Source: Escherichia coli
GTDB lineage: Bacteria; Pseudomonadota; Gammaproteobacteria; Enterobacterales; Enterobacteriaceae
DNA: 64,000 nucleotides
Assembly: GCF_003334305.1 (NCBI RefSeq)
Contig: NZ_QOWS01000003.1
Reading direction: 5' to 3' (one strand)
Shown: in pieces, positions 14,241-41,362 of the stretch
Position numbering within the stretch: position 1 is the stretch's first letter
Layout: every line of letters starts with the position of its first letter
The notes under the pieces: model-generated
Seen by the model: only the letters and a program-made list of their open reading frames with translations
Database searches by the model: none
Told to the model about the DNA's origin: nothing
Made by a program: the position numbers and the translations under genes

Positions 14241-14787
14241 TTAATTTATGCAGCAGGTCCATCACTTGCTGCACCTCTTCCTGAGTAAGCGCCCCGTCTT
14301 TGGCCCATTGCACGCGACCGTCTTTATCCAGCACCACTACAGCGGAACTTTTTTCATCCAGCTGCCAGGCACCGCGTGCGACGCCATTGCTATCAACAAT
14401 AAACTGCGACCAGGGATAAAGCTTTTTATTACTCTCCAGACTGCTGCGCACAAACATGCCGGAACCCGGAATTGCGTCGTCGGTGTTAACAATGGTGGTG
14501 GTCTGGTAACGATCGTGCGGTAACTTCGCTGATTTAATCGCTTCAATCAGCGTCGCGTTTTTCTCTTTTGCAGAGGTGCGACCAGCAATATGTTGCAGTA
14601 CTCGCACTTTTCCCACTAACTGCGCGCTGTTCCAGGTTTTGTAGCTAAACTGATCTTTATCAAGCACCAACTCGCCACGATCGGTGATGCCAATCGGCGG
14701 CACTCGCTGACCGGTTTCGAACTGATGTGCGGAAGCCATCATCGGCAACAGCAGGCAGGTGAGTGCCAGAATCTTGCGTAGGGTCAT
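14230..14787 (-). CDS. ytfJ: periplasmic YtfJ-family protein
   Basis: 185-aa protein with signal peptide recognised as YtfJ; its 3' end overlaps the cysQ 3' end by 11 nt. Confidence 0.85.
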
Positions 14788-26219: not shown

Positions 26220-27722
26220 ATGACGACCGACCAACACCAGGAAATCCTCCGCACCGAAGGATTAAGTAAATTTTTCCCCGGCGTCAAAGCGTTAGACAAC
26301 GTTGATTTCAGCCTGCGCCGTGGCGAAATCATGGCGCTGCTCGGTGAAAACGGGGCGGGAAAATCGACGCTAATCAAAGCATTAACCGGTGTATACCACG
26401 CCGATCGCGGCACCATCTGGCTGGAAGGCCAGGCTATCTCACCGAAAAATACCGCCCATGCACAACAACTCGGCATCGGAACCGTTTATCAGGAAGTCAA
26501 CCTGCTACCCAATATGTCGGTCGCTGATAATCTATTCATAGGTCGCGAACCCAAACGTTTCGGCTTTCTACGCCGCAAAGAGATGGAAAAGCGTGCCACC
26601 GAACTGATGACATCTTACGGTTTCTCCCTCGACGTGCGTGAACCGCTTAACCGTTTTTCGGTGGCGATGCAGCAAATCGTCGCCATTTGCCGGGCTATCG
26701 ATCTCTCCGCCAAAGTGCTGATCCTCGATGAACCCACCGCCAGCCTCGACACCCAGGAAGTGGAGCTATTATTTGTCCTGATGCGTCAGTTGCGCGATCG
26801 CGGCGTCAGCCTGATCTTTGTCACTCACTTTCTCGATCAGGTCTATCAGGTCAGCGATCGGATCACTGTCTTACGCAACGGCAGTTTCGTAGGCTGTCGG
26901 GAAACGCGCGAGCTACCGCAGATCGAACTGGTAAAAATGATGCTGGGGCGCGAGCTGGATACCCACGCGCTACAGCGTGCCGGGCGAACATTGTTGAGCG
27001 ACAAACCCGTTGCCGCGTTCAAAAATTACGGCAAAAAAGGAACGATAGCACCGTTTGATCTCGAAGTTCGCCCCGGCGAGATCGTCGGTCTGGCTGGCTT
27101 GCTGGGATCCGGACGTACCGAAACCGCCGAAGTGATCTTCGGTATCAAACCTGCTGACAGCGGCACGGCGTTGATCAAAGGCAAACAGCAAAACCTGCGA
27201 TCGCCACATCAGGCTTCGGTACTGGGTATCGGCTTCTGCCCGGAAGACAGGAAAACCGATGGCATCATCGCCGCCGCCTCGGTACGGGAAAATATCATCC
27301 TCGCTCTCCAGGCCCAGCGCGGCTGGCTACGACCCATTTCCCGCAAAGAGCAGCAAGAGATTGCCGAACGCTTTATCCGCCAGCTTGGCATTCGCACACC
27401 TTCAACTGAACAACCGATTGAATTTCTCTCTGGCGGCAATCAGCAAAAAGTGTTGCTTTCACGTTGGCTACTGACCCGACCGCAATTTCTGATCCTCGAT
27501 GAGCCAACCCGCGGCATTGATGTTGGTGCCCACGCCGAGATCATCCGCCTGATTGAAACGCTATGCGCCGATGGTCTGGCGCTGCTGGTGATCTCCTCCG
27601 AACTGGAAGAGCTGGTGGGCTATGCCGATCGGGTGATCATCATGCGCGATCGCAAACAGGTGGCGGAGATCCCGCTGGCAGAGCTTTCCGTTCCGGCGAT
27701 CATGAACGCCATTGCGGCGTAA
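26220..27722 (+). CDS. ytfR: sugar ABC transporter ATP-binding protein (tandem ABC domains)
   Basis: Two Walker A motifs (GENGAGKST, GLLGSGRTE); ATG 26220 preceded by AAGGGGGAAA; ORF-track start 26202 is six codons upstream. Confidence 0.9.
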   Translation: MTTDQHQEILRTEGLSKFFPGVKALDNVDFSLRRGEIMALLGENGAGKSTLIKALTGVYHADRGTIWLEGQAISPKNTAHAQQLGIGTVYQEVNLLPNMSVADNLFIGREPKRFGFLRRKEMEKRATELMTSYGFSLDVREPLNRFSVAMQQIVAICRAIDLSAKVLILDEPTASLDTQEVELLFVLMRQLRDRGVSLIFVTHFLDQVYQVSDRITVLRNGSFVGCRETRELPQIELVKMMLGRELDTHALQRAGRTLLSDKPVAAFKNYGKKGTIAPFDLEVRPGEIVGLAGLLGSGRTETAEVIFGIKPADSGTALIKGKQQNLRSPHQASVLGIGFCPEDRKTDGIIAAASVRENIILALQAQRGWLRPISRKEQQEIAERFIRQLGIRTPSTEQPIEFLSGGNQQKVLLSRWLLTRPQFLILDEPTRGIDVGAHAEIIRLIETLCADGLALLVISSELEELVGYADRVIIMRDRKQVAEIPLAELSVPAIMNAIAA

Positions 27723-30946: not shown

Positions 30947-32320
30947 ATGCGCATTCATATTTTAGGAATTTGTGGCACATTTATGGGCGGTCTGGCGATG
31001 CTGGCGCGCCAGTTAGGCCATGAAGTAACGGGTTCGGACGCCAATGTGTATCCGCCGATGAGCACCTTACTTGAGAAGCAAGGCATTGAGCTGATTCAGG
31101 GTTACGATGCCAGCCAGCTCGATCCGCAGCCGGATCTGGTGATTATTGGCAACGCCATGACCCGTGGAAATCCGTGTGTGGAAGCGGTACTGGAAAAAAA
31201 CATCCCTTATATGTCAGGTCCACAGTGGCTGCACGATTTTGTGCTGCGCGACCGCTGGGTGCTGGCCGTTGCCGGTACACACGGCAAAACTACCACCGCG
31301 GGAATGGCGACCTGGATTCTGGAACAGTGCGGTTACAAACCGGGATTTGTGATCGGCGGTGTGCCGGGGAACTTTGAGGTTTCGGCGCGTCTGGGCGAAA
31401 GCGACTTCTTTGTTATCGAAGCGGATGAGTATGACTGCGCCTTCTTCGACAAACGCTCTAAATTTGTCCATTACTGCCCGCGTACGCTGATCCTCAACAA
31501 CCTTGAGTTCGATCACGCCGATATCTTTGACGACCTGAAAGCGATCCAGAAACAGTTCCACCATCTGGTGCGTATCGTTCCGGGGCAGGGCCGTATTATC
31601 TGGCCGGAAAATGACATCAACCTGAAACAGACCATGGCGATGGGCTGCTGGAGCGAGCAGGAGCTGGTGGGTGAGCAGGGTCACTGGCAGGCGAAAAAGC
31701 TGACCACTGACGCTTCTGAATGGGAAGTCTTGCTGGATGGCGAAAAAGTGGGCGAAGTGAAATGGTCGCTGGTGGGCGAACATAATATGCACAATGGCCT
31801 GATGGCGATTGCGGCGGCTCGCCATGTTGGTGTAGCGCCTGCAGATGCCGCTAACGCGCTGGGTTCGTTTATTAACGCTCGTCGCCGTCTGGAGTTGCGT
31901 GGTGAAGCGAATGGCGTGACGGTATATGACGATTTTGCCCATCACCCGACGGCAATTCTGGCAACGCTTGCGGCGCTGCGTGGCAAAGTTGGTGGTACGG
32001 CGCGCATTATTGCTGTGCTGGAGCCGCGCTCGAATACCATGAAAATGGGGATCTGCAAAGACGATCTGGCACCTTCATTAGGTCGTGCCGATGAAGTCTT
32101 CCTGCTGCAACCGGCGCATATTCCGTGGCAGGTGGCAGAAGTGGCAGAAGCCTGCGTTCAGCCTGCACACTGGAGTGGCGATGTGGATACGCTGGCAGAT
32201 ATGGTGGTGAAAACCGCTCAGCCTGGCGACCATATTCTGGTGATGAGCAACGGCGGTTTTGGTGGGATCCATCAGAAACTGCTGGATGGTCTGGCGAAGA
32301 AGGCGGAAGCTGCGCAGTAA
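30947..32320 (+). CDS. mpl: UDP-N-acetylmuramate:L-alanyl-gamma-D-glutamyl-meso-diaminopimelate ligase
   Basis: 457-aa Mur-ligase-family protein recognised as Mpl. Confidence 0.95.
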
Positions 32321-35081: not shown

Positions 35082-35546
35082 TCATCGCAAATGATGCACC
35101 ACCTGATTGCTGCTGCCGCGCCAGATCAGGGAAGGGTCTTTTAAATCCTGCACAAATTTGCCGTCGACCAGTACGTTAATCAAATCAACAACCTGCATTT
35201 GCGCAGCGTTGAGTTCGTCGAGTTTATAGCCTGTCCACACCCAGATGTCTTTACCCGGACACTCGGCGCGGATGCGTTTTACCAGTTTCAGAATATCCGG
35301 CACGTTTTGCGGATGCAGCGGATCGCCGCCGGAGAGGGAAATCCCCTGGCGTTTGATACGAGTGTCATTCAGATCTTTAATGATCTTGTCTTCCATTGCT
35401 TTGGTAAATGGCTGACCAGAATTTACCCGCCATGTGCTTTTGTTATAGCAACCGGGGCATTCATGAACACACCCGGAGACAAACAGGGTGCAGCGAGTGC
35501 CGGGGCCGTTGACGATGTCGACAGGATAGTACTGATGATAATTCAT
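35082..35546 (-). CDS. nrdG: anaerobic ribonucleotide reductase activating protein (radical SAM)
   Basis: 154-aa protein with Cys-rich radical-SAM motif (CTLFVSGCVHECPGCYNK). Confidence 0.95.
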   Translation of the reverse strand: MNYHQYYPVDIVNGPGTRCTLFVSGCVHECPGCYNKSTWRVNSGQPFTKAMEDKIIKDLNDTRIKRQGISLSGGDPLHPQNVPDILKLVKRIRAECPGKDIWVWTGYKLDELNAAQMQVVDLINVLVDGKFVQDLKDPSLIWRGSSNQVVHHLR

Positions 35547-35703: not shown

Positions 35704-37842
35704 TTAACCTATCTGCCCATTCCCCAAATGTTTAACGCGGCGCTTAACTTCTTCCTGCTTACCAGCGTTAAACGGACGTGCATCCGGGCTACCTAAATAT
35801 CCGCACACGCGGCGAGTCACCGACACACGGGAGGCGTCATGGTTACCACATTTCGGGCAAGTGAAGCCTTTGCTGGTGCACTCGAACTCACCGGTAAAGC
35901 CACACTCGTAGCACTCATCAATCGGTGTATTGGTGCCGTAATACGGTACATGCTGATAGCTGTAATCCCAGACATCTTCCAGCGCCTTCAGGTTGTGCTG
36001 AATGTTTGGATACTCGCCGTAGCAAATGAAACCACCGTTCGCTAGCGGCGGGTAAGGCGCTTCAAAGTCGATCTTGTCGTACGGGTTCACCTTCTTCTCC
36101 ACATCGAGGTGGAAACTGTTGGTGTAGTAACCTTTATCGGTCACGCCCGGCACCACGCCAAACTCAGCAGTATCGAGACGGCAGAAGCGGTCGCACAGGT
36201 TTTCACTCGGCGTGCTGTAGAGACTGAAACCATAACCCGTTTCTTCTTTCCACTGATCCACTGCCTGGCGCAGACGTTCAACAATGGCGATACCTTTCGC
36301 GCGAAGCTGCTCGTTGTCGTAAACATGCTCGCCGCCGAACAGCGCGTTAATGGTTTCGTGGATGCCGATGTAACCCAGCGAAATAGACGCACGACCGTTT
36401 TTGAAGATTTCAGAAACATCATCGTCAGCATTCAGACGTACGCCACAAGCACCTTCCATATAGAGGATCGGGGCGACGCGCGCTTTCACGCCTTCGAGAC
36501 GAGCGATACGGGTCATCAGTGCCTTACGTGCCAGCACCAGACGTTCATCCAGCAGCTTCCAGAAGGTGGCTTCATCGCCTTTTGCTTCCAGAGCAATACG
36601 CGGCAGGTTCAGGCTGATCACGCCGAGGTTGTTACGACCATCGTGGATCTGCTCGCCGTTTTCATTTTCCCACACGCCGAGGAAGCTGCGGCAGCCCATC
36701 GGGGTTTTAAACGAACCGGTGACTTTCACTACCTGATCGTAGTTCAGGATATCCGGATACATGCGCTTGCTTGCGCACTCCAGCGCCAGCTGTTTGATGT
36801 CGTAGTTCGGATCGCCTTTTTTATGGTTCAGGCCATCGCGAATCGCAAACACCAGTTTCGGGAACACCGCAGTTTTACGGTTTTTACCAAGGCCTGCGAT
36901 ACGGTTACGCAGGATAGATTCCTGAATCAGGCGCGATTCCCAGCTGGTGCCCAGACCAAAACCAAAGGTTACAAACGGCGTCTGACCGTTGGCGGTGTGC
37001 AGGGTGTTTACTTCGTACTCCAGCGACTGGAAGGCATCGTAGCACTCTTTGATGGTACGAGAGTTTGCGTAGCCTTCGGCGTCCGGGATGTTCCACTCTT
37101 CTGCGGTCTTGCGATGTTTGTTGTAGCTGGCGGTAACAAACGGCGCCAGCACTTCATCGATACGGTTAATGGTGGTGCCGCCATAAATATGGCTGGCGAC
37201 CTGAGCAATAATCTGCGCAGTTACCGCGGTTGCCGTAGAGATCGACTTCGGCGGTTCAATCTCGGCGTTCCCCATTTTAAAGCCCTGGGTCAGCATGCCT
37301 TTCAGGTCGATCAACATGCAGTTGAACATCGGGAAGAACGGCGAGTAATCGAGATCGTGATAGTGAATATCGCCACGCTCATGTGCCTGCACCACGTCAC
37401 GCGGCAGCAGGTGCTGGCGTGCATAGTGTTTAGCCACGATCCCGGCCAGCAGGTCGCGCTGGGTTGGAATCACCTTGCTGTCTTTGTTGGCGTTTTCGTT
37501 GAGTAACGAGGCGTTGGTCTGCTCGACCAGACCACGGATCTCCTGGTTCAGGCGACCGCGTTTTTCACGTTCAATGTCGCGATCGTGACGGTACTCGATG
37601 TAAGCACGAGCCAGTTGTTTGTATGGACCCGACATCAGCTGGTTTTCAACTGCGGTCTGGATCTCGTTGATATCCACCTGGTTGCGGCCCTGCATCTGCT
37701 CGCTGACAACCGCGGCAACAGTGGCGCAATAATCGGCATCATCGACTTCCGCTGCTTTAGCTGCACGCAGAATCGCTTCTTTGATGCGCTCTGATTTAAA
37801 CGGCACTTTGCAGCCGTCTCGTTTCATCACATGCGGTGTCAT
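35704..37842 (-). CDS. nrdD: anaerobic ribonucleoside-triphosphate reductase
   Basis: 712-aa protein with C-terminal glycyl-radical motif and Zn-ribbon cysteines. Confidence 0.97.
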   Translation of the reverse strand: MTPHVMKRDGCKVPFKSERIKEAILRAAKAAEVDDADYCATVAAVVSEQMQGRNQVDINEIQTAVENQLMSGPYKQLARAYIEYRHDRDIEREKRGRLNQEIRGLVEQTNASLLNENANKDSKVIPTQRDLLAGIVAKHYARQHLLPRDVVQAHERGDIHYHDLDYSPFFPMFNCMLIDLKGMLTQGFKMGNAEIEPPKSISTATAVTAQIIAQVASHIYGGTTINRIDEVLAPFVTASYNKHRKTAEEWNIPDAEGYANSRTIKECYDAFQSLEYEVNTLHTANGQTPFVTFGFGLGTSWESRLIQESILRNRIAGLGKNRKTAVFPKLVFAIRDGLNHKKGDPNYDIKQLALECASKRMYPDILNYDQVVKVTGSFKTPMGCRSFLGVWENENGEQIHDGRNNLGVISLNLPRIALEAKGDEATFWKLLDERLVLARKALMTRIARLEGVKARVAPILYMEGACGVRLNADDDVSEIFKNGRASISLGYIGIHETINALFGGEHVYDNEQLRAKGIAIVERLRQAVDQWKEETGYGFSLYSTPSENLCDRFCRLDTAEFGVVPGVTDKGYYTNSFHLDVEKKVNPYDKIDFEAPYPPLANGGFICYGEYPNIQHNLKALEDVWDYSYQHVPYYGTNTPIDECYECGFTGEFECTSKGFTCPKCGNHDASRVSVTRRVCGYLGSPDARPFNAGKQEEVKRRVKHLGNGQIG

Positions 37843-38005
37843 GATCGCTCCATATTTTTAAGAACAGGTTATCCACAGAAATTGGGAAAGGCGTTTTCCG
37901 GTTTTTTCGTTTCGTTTTCCGGTGCTTTCCGCAATCGCCATCCGCTTATCCACAACGCCGCACCTTTTTCGTGGGGAGCTGTAGTAGCAATTATAGTCGA
38001 TTAAT

Positions 38006-38051
38006 ACAACATATTGGGTTGGGACGCATTTTAAAGTCTATATATAGTGCT
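38006..38051 (-). promoter_or_regulatory. two candidate NrdR boxes upstream of nrdDG (ACAACATATTGGGTTG and GTCTATATATAGTGC)
   Basis: Two AT-centred partially palindromic 16-bp elements about 30 bp apart, 165-210 bp upstream of the nrdD start. Confidence 0.5.
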
Positions 38052-38077
38052 TTGCATCAAGGATGTTTGAACTTTTT

Positions 38078-38091
38078 TTGATGTAGCTCAA
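38078..38091 (-). promoter_or_regulatory. candidate FNR site TTGATgtagCTCAA upstream of nrdDG
   Basis: One mismatch from the TTGAT-N4-ATCAA consensus; nrdDG is an anaerobically induced FNR-activated operon. Confidence 0.5.
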
Positions 38092-38189
38092 AGTAAAAAG
38101 CAGAGCGTACGGATGACGGGCGCTACAGCGTTATGTAAATTTTTTAATGAATTTGCTGGTTGAAAAATCAACAAAAACAACATGCTGAC

Positions 38190-38224
38190 AGACAAAACCC
38201 CGGAATGACAGGCATTCCCGGGGC
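38190..38224 (-). terminator. intrinsic terminator after treBC
   Basis: CCCCGGAATG...CATTCCGGGG hairpin followed by a U-run on the minus strand, just past the treC stop. Confidence 0.65.
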
Positions 38225-38235
38225 TTAGCGGATAC

Positions 38236-39891
38236 TTACTTCTGTAACCACCAGACAGCCTCAAAAGGCCGTAAAGTCATGGCACAGGGTTGTGGTGAGG
38301 CTTCTTCGTAGTTATGCATCACAAGCTGCCAGTTGCCGCGCATTTGCCCTGGCTGCCAGGGTTGGATCTCACGGCTAAGGTTGGCAATGACCAGCAAGGT
38401 TTGCCCCTTCCATTCACGGCGATAGCACCACAATACAGGGCTGTTTGGCAGCAGATCCTGGTAATTGCCCCATGTCAGGATGGCTTCTTGCTTACGCAGT
38501 GCGATTAACTTTTGGTAGGTGTAAAACACCGAGGAGTCATCGGCCAGCGCGGCTTCTACGTTGATTTGTTGATAGTTATCGCCCAGGCCAATCCACGGTT
38601 CGCCAGCCGTAAACCCGGCATTATCGCCGTTGCTCCATTGCATGGGCGTGCGGCTGTTGTCACGGGATTTACTGGCGAGGATTGCCAATAACTCGTCGGC
38701 ATCACGACCATCGTTGCGCAGCTCGGCAAACATATTGAGGCTCTCCACGTCGCGATAGTCAGTAATGCGCGTGAAATGCGGGTTGGTCATGCCAATCTCT
38801 TCGCCCTGGTAGATATACGGCGTTCCCTGCATGCCATGCAGCACCATCGCCAGCATTTTTGCCGCAGGCACGCGGTATTCACCTTCATCACCAAAGCGAG
38901 AAATAATGCGCGGCTGATCGTGGTTACACCAGAACAAGGCATTCCATGCCACGTTGTGCATTCCTTGTTGCCAGTGGCGGAACAATGTTTTCAACGCCAC
39001 AAAGTCAGGTTTAGCCAGCGTCCATTTTTCACCACCGGGATAATCGACCTTCAGGTGATGAAAATTAAAGGTCATCGACAATTCACTGCCTGTCAGTGCC
39101 GCGTATCGCTGGCAATGCTCAAGGCTGGTGGAGGACATTTCACCTACGGTCATTAACCCGCGTGGCGTAAACACATCGCGGTTCATCTCGTGCAAAAACT
39201 CGTGTGCTCGTGGCCCGTCGGTGTAAAAGCGACGCCCGTCGCCATCCAGGTCTTCAGGGAAACGCGGGTCTTTGGAGATCAGATTCACCACATCCAGGCG
39301 CAACCCGTCGACCCCACGATCGGCCCAGAATTCACAGACTTTTTTCAGCTCTGCGCGTACCGCTGGATTCTCCCAGTTGAGATCCGCCTGTTCTGGTGCA
39401 AAGAGATGCAAATAGTACTGTTCGCTTTCCGCATGCCAGCGCCACGCACTACCGCCAAATTTTGAACGCCAGTTGTTCGGTGGCGTTTCTGGTTCGCCAT
39501 CGCGCCAGATATAAAACTGGCGGTAAGGGCTTTCTTTGTTCAGCGCCTCGCGAAACCAGGCATGTTGGGTAGAGGTATGGTTAAACACCATATCAAGAAT
39601 GATACGAATCCCGCGCGATTTTGCCTGCGTCACCAGTTCGTCAAAATCGTCCAGCGTGCCGTAGGTGGGATCAATCGCCGTATAGTTCGCTACGTCGTAA
39701 CCGTTATCGACCTGGGGAGAGATATAAAAGGGGGTTAGCCAGATGGCATCAACGCCCAGTTTATGCAGATAGTCCAGGCGTTGGATAACGCCACGTAAAT
39801 CGCCGGTGCCGCTACCCGTGGTGTCCTGAAAACTCTTTGGATAAATCTGGTAGATAACGCCGTTTTGCCACCAGTGGGGAAGATTAGTCAT
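38236..39891 (-). CDS. treC: trehalose-6-phosphate hydrolase
   Basis: Protein MTNLPHWWQNGVIYQIYPKSF... (GH13 family); ATG 39889-39891; ORF-track start 40038 is an upstream extension. Confidence 0.95.
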   Translation of the reverse strand: MTNLPHWWQNGVIYQIYPKSFQDTTGSGTGDLRGVIQRLDYLHKLGVDAIWLTPFYISPQVDNGYDVANYTAIDPTYGTLDDFDELVTQAKSRGIRIILDMVFNHTSTQHAWFREALNKESPYRQFYIWRDGEPETPPNNWRSKFGGSAWRWHAESEQYYLHLFAPEQADLNWENPAVRAELKKVCEFWADRGVDGLRLDVVNLISKDPRFPEDLDGDGRRFYTDGPRAHEFLHEMNRDVFTPRGLMTVGEMSSTSLEHCQRYAALTGSELSMTFNFHHLKVDYPGGEKWTLAKPDFVALKTLFRHWQQGMHNVAWNALFWCNHDQPRIISRFGDEGEYRVPAAKMLAMVLHGMQGTPYIYQGEEIGMTNPHFTRITDYRDVESLNMFAELRNDGRDADELLAILASKSRDNSRTPMQWSNGDNAGFTAGEPWIGLGDNYQQINVEAALADDSSVFYTYQKLIALRKQEAILTWGNYQDLLPNSPVLWCYRREWKGQTLLVIANLSREIQPWQPGQMRGNWQLVMHNYEEASPQPCAMTLRPFEAVWWLQK

Positions 39892-39940: not shown

Positions 39941-41362
39941 TTAAACAATATCCAGCGTGCCCAGGCGGTATTTCCGCTGATAGATAAACGAGGTGAGTAC
40001 AATCGGGATGATGATGGCGATAACCATTGCCAGCGCAAATACCTGCCAGTAGCTCGGTTGAATCGAGAGAATTCCCGGCAGGCCGCCTACGCCGATACCA
40101 TTCGCCATAACGCCGTTCAGGCCGCATAGTAATCCTGCCAGACCAGAACCAATCATCGCGCACAGCATCGGGAAGCGATATTTCAGGTTGATGCCGTACA
40201 TTGCAGGCTCAGTGACCCCAAGCCAGGCGGAGATAGCGGCAGGCACGGAGATCTCGCGTTCATTGTGCTTGCGGCTGGAAATGATAATGCCTATCACGGC
40301 GGAGCCCTGAGCGATATTCGACAGCGCAATCAGCGGCCACACTGGCGTGCCACCCATGCTTTGAATCATCTGCAAATCAATAGCAAGGGTGGTCTGGTGT
40401 ACGCCGGTGATCACCAGCGGCGCGTACAGGAAGCCAAACAATGCCGCACCAATCGGAGCAAAGCTGCCGGTCATCAGGTGACGTACCGCAAAGGCAACGC
40501 CATCGCCAATCATGCGACCAAACGGACCAATCAGCGCATGGGCGAGGAACACCGCGAGGATCAGCGAACAGACGGGCACCACCACCAGATAGAGGTAATC
40601 CGGTACGATGCGTTTAAGGCGAGTTTCAATAACGCCCAGCGCCAGCCCGGCTAACAGTGCCGGGATCACCTGCGCCTGATAGCCCACTTTGGCGATGCTG
40701 AACATGCCAAAGTCCCACACTTCCGGCAGCTGCTGCCCGAGCAGATAAGCGTTCATCAGCTGGGGGGAAACCAGTGTCACGCCAAGCACGATACCAAGGA
40801 TCGGCGTGCCGCCCATTTTTTTCACCGCTGACCAGCAAATCCCGACCGGCAGGTAGAAGAAGATCGCTTCACCGATCAACCACAGAAAATCGTAGATCGT
40901 TTGCAGGGAAGGGTACATTTGCGCCAGCGTTTGACCGTTGCTCATGGGCAAATCGCCGATCACATTACGAAAACCGAGGATCAAACCGCCGCTAATCAAC
41001 GCGGGCAGCAACGGGAAGAAGATCTCCGCGAAATGAGAGATCAACTGCTCATGCCATTTCATATTCTGCCGGGCGGCTTTTTTTACCTGCTCTTTATCAA
41101 CCTGCGCCTGTCCGGTTGACGCTATTAGTGCTTGATAGTAATCACCCACGTTGGTGCCAATCACCACCTGAAATTGCCCGGCATTGGTGAAACAGCCTTT
41201 CACCATGGGGAGTTGCTCAATTTCTTTCGGTCTGGCATTGGCCGGTTGGTTGAGGACAAAGCGCAGGCGAGTAATACAGTGGCTCACCGTCGCAATATTG
41301 CCGCGCCCGCCGACCAGTTCAATCAACCGATCGATATCCGTTTGGTTTATTTTGCTCATCAT
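39941..41362 (-). CDS. treB: PTS trehalose-specific EIIBC component
   Basis: 473-aa protein with N-terminal EIIB cysteine motif (VSHCITRLRF) and EIIC membrane domain. Confidence 0.95.
   Translation of the reverse strand: MMSKINQTDIDRLIELVGGRGNIATVSHCITRLRFVLNQPANARPKEIEQLPMVKGCFTNAGQFQVVIGTNVGDYYQALIASTGQAQVDKEQVKKAARQNMKWHEQLISHFAEIFFPLLPALISGGLILGFRNVIGDLPMSNGQTLAQMYPSLQTIYDFLWLIGEAIFFYLPVGICWSAVKKMGGTPILGIVLGVTLVSPQLMNAYLLGQQLPEVWDFGMFSIAKVGYQAQVIPALLAGLALGVIETRLKRIVPDYLYLVVVPVCSLILAVFLAHALIGPFGRMIGDGVAFAVRHLMTGSFAPIGAALFGFLYAPLVITGVHQTTLAIDLQMIQSMGGTPVWPLIALSNIAQGSAVIGIIISSRKHNEREISVPAAISAWLGVTEPAMYGINLKYRFPMLCAMIGSGLAGLLCGLNGVMANGIGVGGLPGILSIQPSYWQVFALAMVIAIIIPIVLTSFIYQRKYRLGTLDIV

What the first reader, a model, noticed from the sequence alone, without database searches (positions are those of the whole stretch)
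38006..38091. nrdDG upstream region carries NrdR-box-like pair and an FNR-like site
Two AT-centred palindrome-like 16-mers about three helical turns apart (around 38006-38021 and 38036-38051) and a TTGATgtagCTCAA element (38078-38091) precede the anaerobic ribonucleotide reductase operon. This fits its known dual control by NrdR and FNR. I could find only one convincing FNR half-site pair by eye, although two are described.
Basis: partly seen in the sequence, partly recalled or inferred. Interest (0 to 1): 0.2.

Follow-up and report, generated by a model that had tools for sequence, protein, structure and literature searches.

The report
Known E. coli nrdDG promoter control region
This is the well-studied control region of the E. 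coli anaerobic ribonucleotide reductase operon, with its NrdR repressor boxes and FNR activator sites where the literature places them, so the finding is correct but ordinary.

Summary
The window is E. coli chromosome. nrdD and nrdG lie on the minus strand, and the finding sits in the 393-bp treC–nrdD spacer.

The FNR element at 38078-38091 is exact. With an FNR matrix built without it, it is the best match in the 64 kb. The same 14-mer is a ChIP-seq-bound site in Myers 2013.

The two NrdR boxes are real, but their registers are 38035-38050 and 38004-38019. They rank 2 and 3 with a matrix built from the other E. coli nrd operators. A published 57-mer that binds NrdR at about 160 nM maps here exactly.

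It overlaps NrdR box 1 by 4 bp.

In 102 non-redundant Enterobacteriaceae nrdD upstream regions the whole arrangement is conserved while the flanks diverge.

Small additions: the relative strength of the two FNR sites is reversed between Escherichia and most other genera, and several conserved blocks have no assigned function.

Verdict: interpretation supported, already known, low interest.

The parts
38078..38091 (-). FNR site 2 (distal), sense TTGAGctacATCAA, centred at -64.5
   Evidence: PWM rank 1 in the window, 17.98 bits. The same 14-mer is in Myers 2013 Table S6 under a ChIP-seq peak. It lies inside the published FNR-binding 54-mer. The TTG and ATCAA parts are conserved in 102 relatives.
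38047..38060 (-). FNR site 1 (proximal), sense TTGATgcaaAGCAC, centred at -33.5; overlaps NrdR box 1 by 4 bp
   Evidence: 10.75 bits, rank 7, weak on its own. Its centre is exactly 31 bp from site 2. It is the near-consensus TTGATGCAAATCAC in 76 of 102 relatives. Published as site 1.
38035..38050 (.). NrdR box 1 (sense GCACTATATATAGACT), -30 to -15
   Evidence: 14.34 bits, rank 3, with a matrix built from the nrdAB and nrdHIEF boxes only. Inside the NrdR-binding 57-mer. Conserved.
38028..38033 (-). -10 hexamer TAAAAT, within the 15-bp linker between the NrdR boxes
   Evidence: Read from the sequence. TAAAAT in 77 and TAGAAT in 21 of 102 relatives. Mean conservation 0.96.
38020..38020 (-). Inferred transcription start (+1)
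   Evidence: Inferred by placing the published -33.5 and -64.5 centres on the two sites. Not verified independently here.
38004..38019 (.). NrdR box 2 (sense ACCCAATATGTTGTAT), +2 to +17
   Evidence: 14.36 bits, rank 2. Inside the 57-mer. 31-bp centre spacing to box 1 in 101 of 102 relatives.
37946..37954 (+). DnaA box a, perfect TTATCCACA, +67 to +75 of the 5' UTR
   Evidence: One of only two perfect copies in the 64 kb. Conservation 0.98. The published DnaA ChIP-seq summit maps to about 37921.
37858..37877 (+). Double DnaA box b (TTAAGAACA gg TTATCCACA), +144 to +163
   Evidence: Listed for nrdD in Stringer et al. 2024 Table 1. The perfect box has conservation 0.98 and its partner 0.68.
37848..37851 (-). 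Shine-Dalgarno GGAG of nrdD
   Evidence: Read from the sequence. Conserved.
35704..37842 (-). nrdD coding sequence (anaerobic ribonucleoside-triphosphate reductase)
   Evidence: ORF. RefSeq annotation of an identical locus.
35082..35546 (-). nrdG coding sequence (activating enzyme)
38192..38223 (-). treC intrinsic terminator (hairpin plus T run), which separates treBC from the nrdDG unit

Best explanation
This is the promoter and operator region of the E. coli nrdDG operon (class III, anaerobic ribonucleotide reductase), read on the minus strand.

Under anoxia, dimeric [4Fe-4S] FNR binds the strong distal site (38078-38091, -64.5) and the weaker proximal site (38047-38060, -33.5). It activates a promoter whose -10 is TAAAAT (38028-33) and which has no recognisable -35.

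[quoted passage not shown] Their 15-bp linker holds the -10 hexamer and +1. Bound NrdR therefore occludes RNA polymerase, and because box 1 shares 4 bp with FNR site 1 it probably competes with FNR there.

A third input is DnaA, which binds two perfect boxes in the 178-nt 5' UTR.

Shown here: sequence identity to the published probes, matrix ranks, and deep conservation of every site and spacing. Taken from the literature: binding, ChIP occupancy and the effects of mutations. Inferred: steric occlusion, NrdR-FNR competition, and the direction of the DnaA effect.
For: Locus identity: the spacer is 100% identical to many E. coli chromosomes and lies between treC and nrdD. It differs from MG1655 only at positions outside the sites.

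NrdR: the 57-mer that binds NrdR (KD 160 nM with ATP plus dATP, no binding with ATP alone) matches 37999-38055 exactly. The boxes rank 2 and 3 with a leave-operon-out matrix.

FNR: rank 1 with the matrix. ChIP-seq peak and PatSer ln p of -14.45. The 54-mer to which two FNR dimers bind maps here. The published site positions agree with the 31-bp spacing.

Conservation: in 102 non-redundant Enterobacteriaceae loci the NrdR pair keeps 31-bp spacing in 101. FNR-1 sits 10 nt before box 1 and FNR-2 31 nt further upstream. The 37990-38100 block averages 0.80 identity against 0.35-0.40 in the flanks. Within E. coli, the 105-bp block is at least 99% identical in 5101 of 5426 genomes, against 1304 for the whole spacer.

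Regulators: nrdR and fnr are annotated in E. coli.

DnaA.
Against: The FNR positions (-33.5 and -64.5) are not the usual class II or class I positions (-41.5, -61.5). PMC10425943 itself calls the activation mechanism a remaining mystery.

I could not verify the transcription start independently. Two Cappable-seq papers had nothing findable in their held supplements, and the primary papers (Boston & Atlung 2003, Torrents 2007) are not held.

FNR-1 alone is not above chance in E. coli (4.5 sites this good expected per 64 kb). It is destroyed by a 1-bp deletion in about 8 of 102 relatives.

The simple sigma-70 scan finds no sense-strand promoter here. That is expected for an activator-dependent promoter, but it gives no support either.
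Confidence: 0.93

Rival explanations
1. The proximal element at 38047-38060 is not a working FNR site in E. coli. It would be conserved only because it overlaps the -35 region and NrdR box 1, and FNR would act through the distal site alone.
For: It scores only 10.75 bits, with 4.5 sites this good expected per shuffled window. Its centre at -33.5 is atypical. Escherichia clades degrade it further to TTAATG..AGCAC at 6.3 bits. About 8 of 102 relatives lose its right half by a 1-bp deletion while keeping FNR-2 and the NrdR boxes.
Against: 76 of 102 relatives carry the near-consensus TTGATGCAAATCAC at 15.6 bits. SEC-SAXS fits two FNR dimers on the 54-mer. [quoted passage not shown]
Confidence: 0.12
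2. The TTGA...TCAA element is bound by CRP or another CRP/FNR-family protein rather than by FNR.
For: CRP and FNR sites have related geometry.
Against: Both half-sites carry the FNR-type TTGA/TCAA rather than the CRP-type GTGA/TCAC (sequence, plus established specificity rules). It is the top hit of an FNR ChIP-derived matrix. It lies under an FNR ChIP-seq peak that survived the delta-fnr control.
Confidence: 0.02
3. The AT-centred 16-mers are chance AT-rich palindromes, or simply -10-like promoter sequence, with no repressor function.
For: The region is AT-rich. An equally good NrdR-matrix hit occurs inside the AT-rich yjgN gene at 55268-55283.
Against: Two hits at exactly 31 bp is about 1e-6 by chance (arithmetic). 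Boxes and spacing are conserved in 101 of 102 relatives. NrdR binds this exact 57-mer. Box mutations derepress the Salmonella orthologue.
Confidence: 0.01

Closest known systems
E. coli K-12 nrdDG promoter (Boston & Atlung 2003; Roca et al. 2008; Torrents et al. 2007; PMC12176259; PMC10425943)
   Same: It is the same locus. All four sites, the -10 hexamer, the 5' UTR and both DnaA boxes are base-for-base identical to MG1655, and the published probes map here.
   Different: There are only strain-level SNPs outside the sites. One is C to T at 38071 in the linker between the two FNR sites. The rest lie at 38131 and further upstream.
Salmonella enterica nrdDG promoter (Panosa et al. 2010, PMC2892513)
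   Same: Same order and spacing: FNR-2, 31 bp, FNR-1 overlapping NrdR box 1, 31 bp, NrdR box 2. Box mutations derepress it.
   Different: In Salmonella the proximal FNR site is near-consensus (TTGATGCAAATCAC, 15.6 bits) and the distal one is weaker (TTGTTctacGTCAA, 14.6 bits). In E. coli the values are 10.7 and 18.0 bits.
NrdR operators of E. coli nrdHIEF and nrdAB (boxes 1 and 2)
   Same: 16-bp AT-centred boxes separated by a 15-bp linker, with similar NrdR affinity (113-187 nM) and dependence on dATP plus ATP or ADP.
   Different: [quoted passage not shown]
Typical class II FNR-activated promoters (FNR centred at -41.5)
   Same: Same 14-bp FNR recognition sequence and an activator-dependent promoter with a poor -35.
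   Different: Here there are two sites, at -33.5 and -64.5. In Myers 2013, 19 of 23 directly activated promoters have the site at -41.5 plus or minus 4.
DnaA-bound double boxes of nrdA, purH and polA (Stringer et al. 2024, PMC11317965)
   Same: A perfect TTATCCACA with a degenerate partner 2-3 bp away, and a ChIP-seq signal.
   Different: At nrdD the boxes lie in the transcribed 5' UTR. A second, equally conserved perfect box sits 77 bp upstream without an obvious partner.

Membership tests
NrdR operator (tandem NrdR boxes) | 16-bp AT-centred palindromic box that matches the NrdR consensus | tested here: met
   These are the only two sites in 64 kb within 3 mismatches of ACACWATATATWGTGT. They score 14.3 and 14.4 bits, ranks 3 and 2, with a matrix built from the other operons' boxes.
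NrdR operator (tandem NrdR boxes) | Two boxes with a 15-16 bp linker (centres 31-32 bp apart) | tested here: met
   Box centres are at 38042.5 and 38011.5, 31 bp apart. The spacing is 31 bp in 101 of 102 relatives.
NrdR operator (tandem NrdR boxes) | Lies in, and overlaps, the promoter of a ribonucleotide reductase operon | tested here: met
   The boxes span -30 to +17 of nrdD, enclosing the -10 hexamer and +1. The +1 position is inferred from published site positions.
NrdR operator (tandem NrdR boxes) | The cognate NrdR protein is encoded by the organism | tested here: met
   nrdR (b0413) is annotated in E. coli MG1655. It is not in this window.
NrdR operator (tandem NrdR boxes) | Nucleotide-dependent binding of NrdR to this DNA | not testable with these tools
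   Published: KD 160 nM with ATP plus dATP, and none with ATP alone, for a 57-mer identical to 37999-38055.
FNR binding site / FNR-activated promoter | Match to TTGAT-N4-ATCAA with FNR-type TTGA half-sites (distal site) | tested here: met
   9 of 10 consensus positions. Rank 1 of 63,987 at 17.98 bits with a matrix that excludes nrdD. PatSer ln p -14.45 against a threshold of -10.75.
FNR binding site / FNR-activated promoter | Match to TTGAT-N4-ATCAA (proximal site) | tested here: inconclusive
   8 of 10 positions, 10.75 bits, rank 7, with 4.5 expected by chance. Support comes from the exact 31-bp phasing and from a near-consensus form in 76 of 102 relatives.
FNR binding site / FNR-activated promoter | Site centred at a canonical activating position (-41.5, or about -61.5, -71.5) | tested here: inconclusive
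   The published centres are -33.5 and -64.5, which is atypical. No transcription start data could be retrieved.
FNR binding site / FNR-activated promoter | In vivo FNR occupancy and FNR-dependent expression | not testable with these tools
   Published: a ChIP-seq peak at nrdD retained after the delta-fnr control. nrdD and nrdG are listed at 0.36 and 0.27 in a supplementary table whose heading I did not read; I take these to be fnr-dependent expression values. fnr is annotated in E. coli.
DnaA box / double DnaA box | 9-mer TTATCCACA | tested here: met
   Two perfect copies, at 37869-77 and 37946-54, and the only ones in the window. Stringer 2024 counts 32 in the whole genome.
DnaA box / double DnaA box | A partner box 2-3 bp away | tested here: inconclusive
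   Box b has TTAAGAACA (6 of 9) 2 bp away, as published. Reading the sequence, box a has no partner better than 4 of 9.
DnaA box / double DnaA box | In vivo DnaA occupancy | not testable with these tools
   Published: ChIP-seq enrichment of 62-fold at 4462739, which maps to window position about 37921, between the two boxes.

The most novel reading that the evidence does not exclude
The promoter may carry conserved information that the published two-regulator model does not explain. (i) A second perfect DnaA box is held 76-79 bp from the known one across the family while the sequence between them diverges. That suggests a DnaA bridge or roadblock in the 5' UTR that ties anaerobic dNTP supply to replication initiation. 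(ii) The two FNR sites are weighted differently by lineage: the distal site is strong in Escherichia and the proximal site is strong in most other genera. (iii) Five unassigned conserved blocks exist, including a TATAAT at +26 to +31 whose pattern of variation looks like a -10 hexamer. They could mark a further regulator or a second start site.
Probability: 0.3. Interest if true: 0.3.

Novelty: already known. Interest (0 to 1): 0.1.

Why it matters
It matters little in itself.

Three things have modest value. The family-wide footprint shows that every site and spacing is under constraint. The relative strength of the two FNR sites differs between E. coli and most relatives, which bears on the acknowledged puzzle of how FNR at -33.5 and -64.5 activates. 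A second DnaA box and several conserved blocks remain unexplained and could be tested directly with promoter fusions.

Tried and rejected
- **Primary papers not held.** Boston & Atlung 2003 and Torrents 2007 could not be read, so the transcription start and site positions come second-hand from PMC10425943.
- **Transcription start data.** I searched the held supplements of two Cappable-seq papers for coordinates near the predicted start and found nothing.
- **Rfam.** Scanning 37600-38400 gave only hits far below the gathering scores.
- **5' UTR fold.** The 181-nt RNA folds no better than shuffles (z = -1.2). Its middle is not conserved, so I dropped an RNA-element reading.
- **Sigma-70 scan.** It found no sense-strand promoter and one antisense match at chance level.
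- **NrdR-matrix hits at 55268-55283 and 55190-55205** (ranks 1 and 4). They lie inside a 38% GC coding ORF that I take to be yjgN, from its position next to a valS-sized ORF, and are 78 bp apart. I rejected them as chance in AT-rich DNA.
- **Fixed-offset scoring of FNR sites in relatives.** It gave artefactual negative scores, and a meaningless correlation, for loci with a 1-bp indel. The flexible scan is the one to trust.
- **Unassigned conserved blocks.** By eye I compared them with CRP, NarL/NarP, ArcA, IHF and IscR consensus sequences recalled from memory. None fitted.

Full report
**Locus and orientation.** The 393-bp stretch 37843-38235 is 100% identical to many complete E. coli chromosomes and is present in all 5426 genomes searched. 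In an identical RefSeq record it lies between treC and nrdD, with the gene order treR-treB-treC | nrdD-nrdG | cybC. In the window these genes are on the minus strand: nrdD at 35704-37842, nrdG at 35082-35546, and treC ending at 38236. The finding therefore lies upstream of nrdD, and its elements should be read on the minus strand. Against MG1655 the spacer differs at nine positions, none inside the elements discussed below. The nearest is a C-to-T change at 38071, between the two FNR sites.

**Checking the observation.**
- The two AT-centred 16-mers are real, but their registers are 38035-38050 (GCACTATATATAGACT) and 38004-38019 (ACCCAATATGTTGTAT). The linker is 15 bp and the centres are 31 bp apart.
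- Only these two positions in the 64 kb lie within three mismatches of ACACWATATATWGTGT, against 0.34 expected.

- FNR: I built a matrix from the 62 ChIP-seq-positive sites in Table S6 of Myers et al. 2013, leaving nrdD out. The distal site scores 17.98 bits and ranks 1 of 63,987 positions, with 0.08 sites this good expected per dinucleotide-shuffled window.
It scores 10.75 bits and ranks 7, with 4.5 expected. It is weak alone, but it sits exactly 31 bp from the top hit.
- Myers' own table lists TTGATGTAGCTCAA for nrdD with PatSer 15.68 and ln p -14.45 (threshold -10.75), under an FNR ChIP-seq peak.
- NrdR: I built a matrix from the four boxes of the nrdAB and nrdHIEF operators only, taken from the probes in PMC12176259. 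Box 2 and box 1 score 14.36 and 14.34 bits and rank 2 and 3, with about 0.15 expected each.
- A chance pair at this spacing is of the order of 1e-6 per window (arithmetic on those numbers).

**Published direct evidence mapped onto the window.**
- The 57-mer that binds E. coli NrdR with KD 160 nM when the protein carries ATP plus dATP (152 nM with ADP plus dATP, no binding with ATP alone) matches 37999-38055 on the minus strand with no mismatch.
- The 54-mer on which SEC-SAXS fits two [4Fe-4S] FNR dimers matches 38042-38095 with one mismatch, the strain SNP in the linker.
- That paper, citing Roca et al. 2008, places site 1 at -33.5 and site 2 at -64.5. [quoted passage not shown]
- Placing those centres on 38053.5 and 38084.5 puts +1 at 38020, seven bases after TAAAAT (38028-38033).
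- On that numbering NrdR box 1 covers -30 to -15 and box 2 covers +2 to +17. The linker holds the -10 hexamer and the start.
- In Salmonella, mutating the boxes derepresses nrdDG, and the authors already noted the overlap of box 1 with an FNR site.

**Phylogenetic footprint.**
- One scan of the species-representative genome collection, using a degenerate pattern for the first 14 codons of nrdD, returned 114 Enterobacteriaceae loci. Of these, 102 upstream regions were long enough and less than 97% identical to each other.
- The block 37990-38100 averages 0.80 identity to the window. The upstream spacer averages 0.35 and the interior of the UTR 0.38-0.40.
- The best NrdR pair has 31-bp spacing in 101 of 102 loci, and both boxes score at least 10 bits in 101.
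- FNR-1 starts 10 nt before box 1, and FNR-2 lies 31 nt further upstream, in nearly all loci.
- The -10 is TAAAAT in 77 loci and TAGAAT in 21.
- Within E. coli, the 105-bp block is at least 99% identical in 5101 of 5426 genomes, against 1304 for the whole spacer.

**A nuance that I did not find in the papers I could read.**
- In 76 of 102 loci the proximal site is the near-consensus TTGATGCAAATCAC (15.6 bits), and the distal site is TTGT[TC]CTG.ATCAA or TTGCGCTA.ATCAA (about 12-15 bits).
- In Escherichia the distal site is TTGAGCTA[CA]ATCAA (18.0-18.6 bits), and the proximal one is weakened to AGCAC (10.7 bits). In four Escherichia lineages it is further weakened to TTAATG...AGCAC (6.3 bits).
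- About eight loci carry a 1-bp deletion that removes the right half of FNR-1 but keeps NrdR box 1 and FNR-2.
- The base at 38050 is both position 11 of FNR-1 and position 1 of NrdR box 1.
- This fits the E. coli genetics, where the distal site dominates. It predicts a larger role for the proximal site elsewhere, but it is a sequence observation only.

- The only two perfect DnaA boxes (TTATCCACA) in the window both lie in the nrdD 5' UTR, at 37869-37877 and 37946-37954. The looser pattern TTWTNCACA adds only one more hit in the window.
- Stringer et al. 2024 report a 62-fold DnaA ChIP-seq peak at nrdD and list the double box tTTAAGAACAggTTATCCACAg, which is 37858-37877 here. They count only 32 perfect boxes in the whole genome.
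- Their summit coordinate maps to about 37921, between the two boxes.
- Both boxes are 0.98 conserved. They are present in 96 of 102 loci and are held 76-79 bp apart, while the sequence between them is only 0.38 conserved.
- PMC12371093 reports higher NrdD protein in delta-DARS2 cells. That would fit repression by DnaA-ATP, but this is an inference.
- H-NS is also cited as a regulator of nrdDG.

**Most likely mechanism.** Under anoxia, FNR activates a promoter that lacks a -35. NrdR carrying dATP plus ATP or ADP clamps the -10 and +1 region through its two boxes, blocks RNA polymerase and probably displaces FNR from site 1. DnaA bound in the UTR adds a link to replication. The sites, their spacing and their conservation are shown here. 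Binding and in vivo occupancy are published. Occlusion, competition and the direction of the DnaA effect are inferred. The way FNR activates from -33.5 and -64.5 remains an acknowledged open question.

**Unassigned features.**
- Conserved blocks: CAAACAT (38063-38069), TTTTTAC (38093-38099), GCCCGTCAT (38113-38121) and AATTTACA (38134-38141).
- TTAATCGACTATAAT (37990-38004) is also conserved. Its TATAAT keeps positions 1, 2, 5 and 6 and varies at 3 and 4, as a -10 hexamer would, but there is no -35.

**Dead ends.**
- No Rfam family matches.
- The UTR does not fold better than shuffles.
- The NrdR-matrix hits near 55.2 kb are inside an AT-rich coding ORF that I take to be yjgN, and I treat them as chance.

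**Verdict.** The feature is already known, so interest is low.

Noticed in passing
window 37869-37877 and 37946-37954: Two perfect DnaA boxes (TTATCCACA) lie in the nrdD 5' UTR and are the only ones in the 64 kb. Both are 0.98 conserved and held 76-79 bp apart in 96 of 102 relatives. DnaA ChIP-seq at nrdD is published, but only the proximal double box is listed there.
   Followed up: yes
window 38047-38060 and 38078-38091; loci L003-L116: The relative strength of the two FNR sites is reversed between lineages. In Escherichia the distal site scores 18 bits and the proximal 6-11 bits. In most other genera the proximal site scores 15.6 bits and the distal 12-15 bits.
   Followed up: partly
L014, L018, L039, L085, L087 and a few others (aligned to window 38047-38060): A 1-bp deletion between the TTGATG half-site and NrdR box 1 removes the right half of FNR-1, while FNR-2 and both NrdR boxes stay intact.
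   Followed up: partly
window 38063-38069, 38093-38099, 38113-38121, 38134-38141: Four short blocks (CAAACAT, TTTTTAC, GCCCGTCAT, AATTTACA) are 0.78-0.95 conserved across 102 Enterobacteriaceae and have no assigned regulator.
   Followed up: partly
window 37990-38004: TTAATCGACTATAAT, just after NrdR box 2 (+17 to +31), is conserved. Its TATAAT keeps positions 1, 2, 5 and 6 and varies at 3 and 4, like a -10 hexamer, but has no -35. It could be a second start site, or only a constraint on the initial transcribed region.
   Followed up: partly
window 37892-37908 and 37913-37929: A 17-nt direct repeat (CGTTTTCCGGT...) lies between the two DnaA boxes. It is present in E. coli and its closest Escherichia relatives but not in other genera.
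   Followed up: no
window 38159-38172: The palindrome GTTGAttttTCAAC has FNR-like TTGA/TCAA halves, but the spacing is 2 bp too short for FNR. It is moderately conserved.
   Followed up: no
window 55190-55205 and 55268-55283: These NrdR-matrix hits (ranks 4 and 1) are 78 bp apart, inside a 38% GC coding ORF that appears to be yjgN. They are most likely chance matches in AT-rich DNA.
   Followed up: partly
L010, L029, L033: Three outlier loci (labelled Klebsiella sp. BIGb0407, an uncultured Cedecea and an Enterobacteriaceae MAG) lack both DnaA boxes and have a shorter, unrelated UTR. Their NrdR boxes are closer to consensus (16-18 bits).
   Followed up: no
window 38192-38223: The treC intrinsic terminator (GC-rich hairpin plus T run) lies about 100 bp upstream of FNR-2. 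This fits nrdDG being its own transcription unit.
   Followed up: partly
E. coli genome search: Three of the 5427 matches to the nrdD upstream region are on records labelled as plasmids, and one genome has two copies.
   Followed up: no
window 27171-27184, 14650-14663, 31503-31516, 41132-41145: These are the next-best FNR-matrix hits in the window (12-13 bits), at roughly chance level. The hit at 41132 is inside treB.
   Followed up: no
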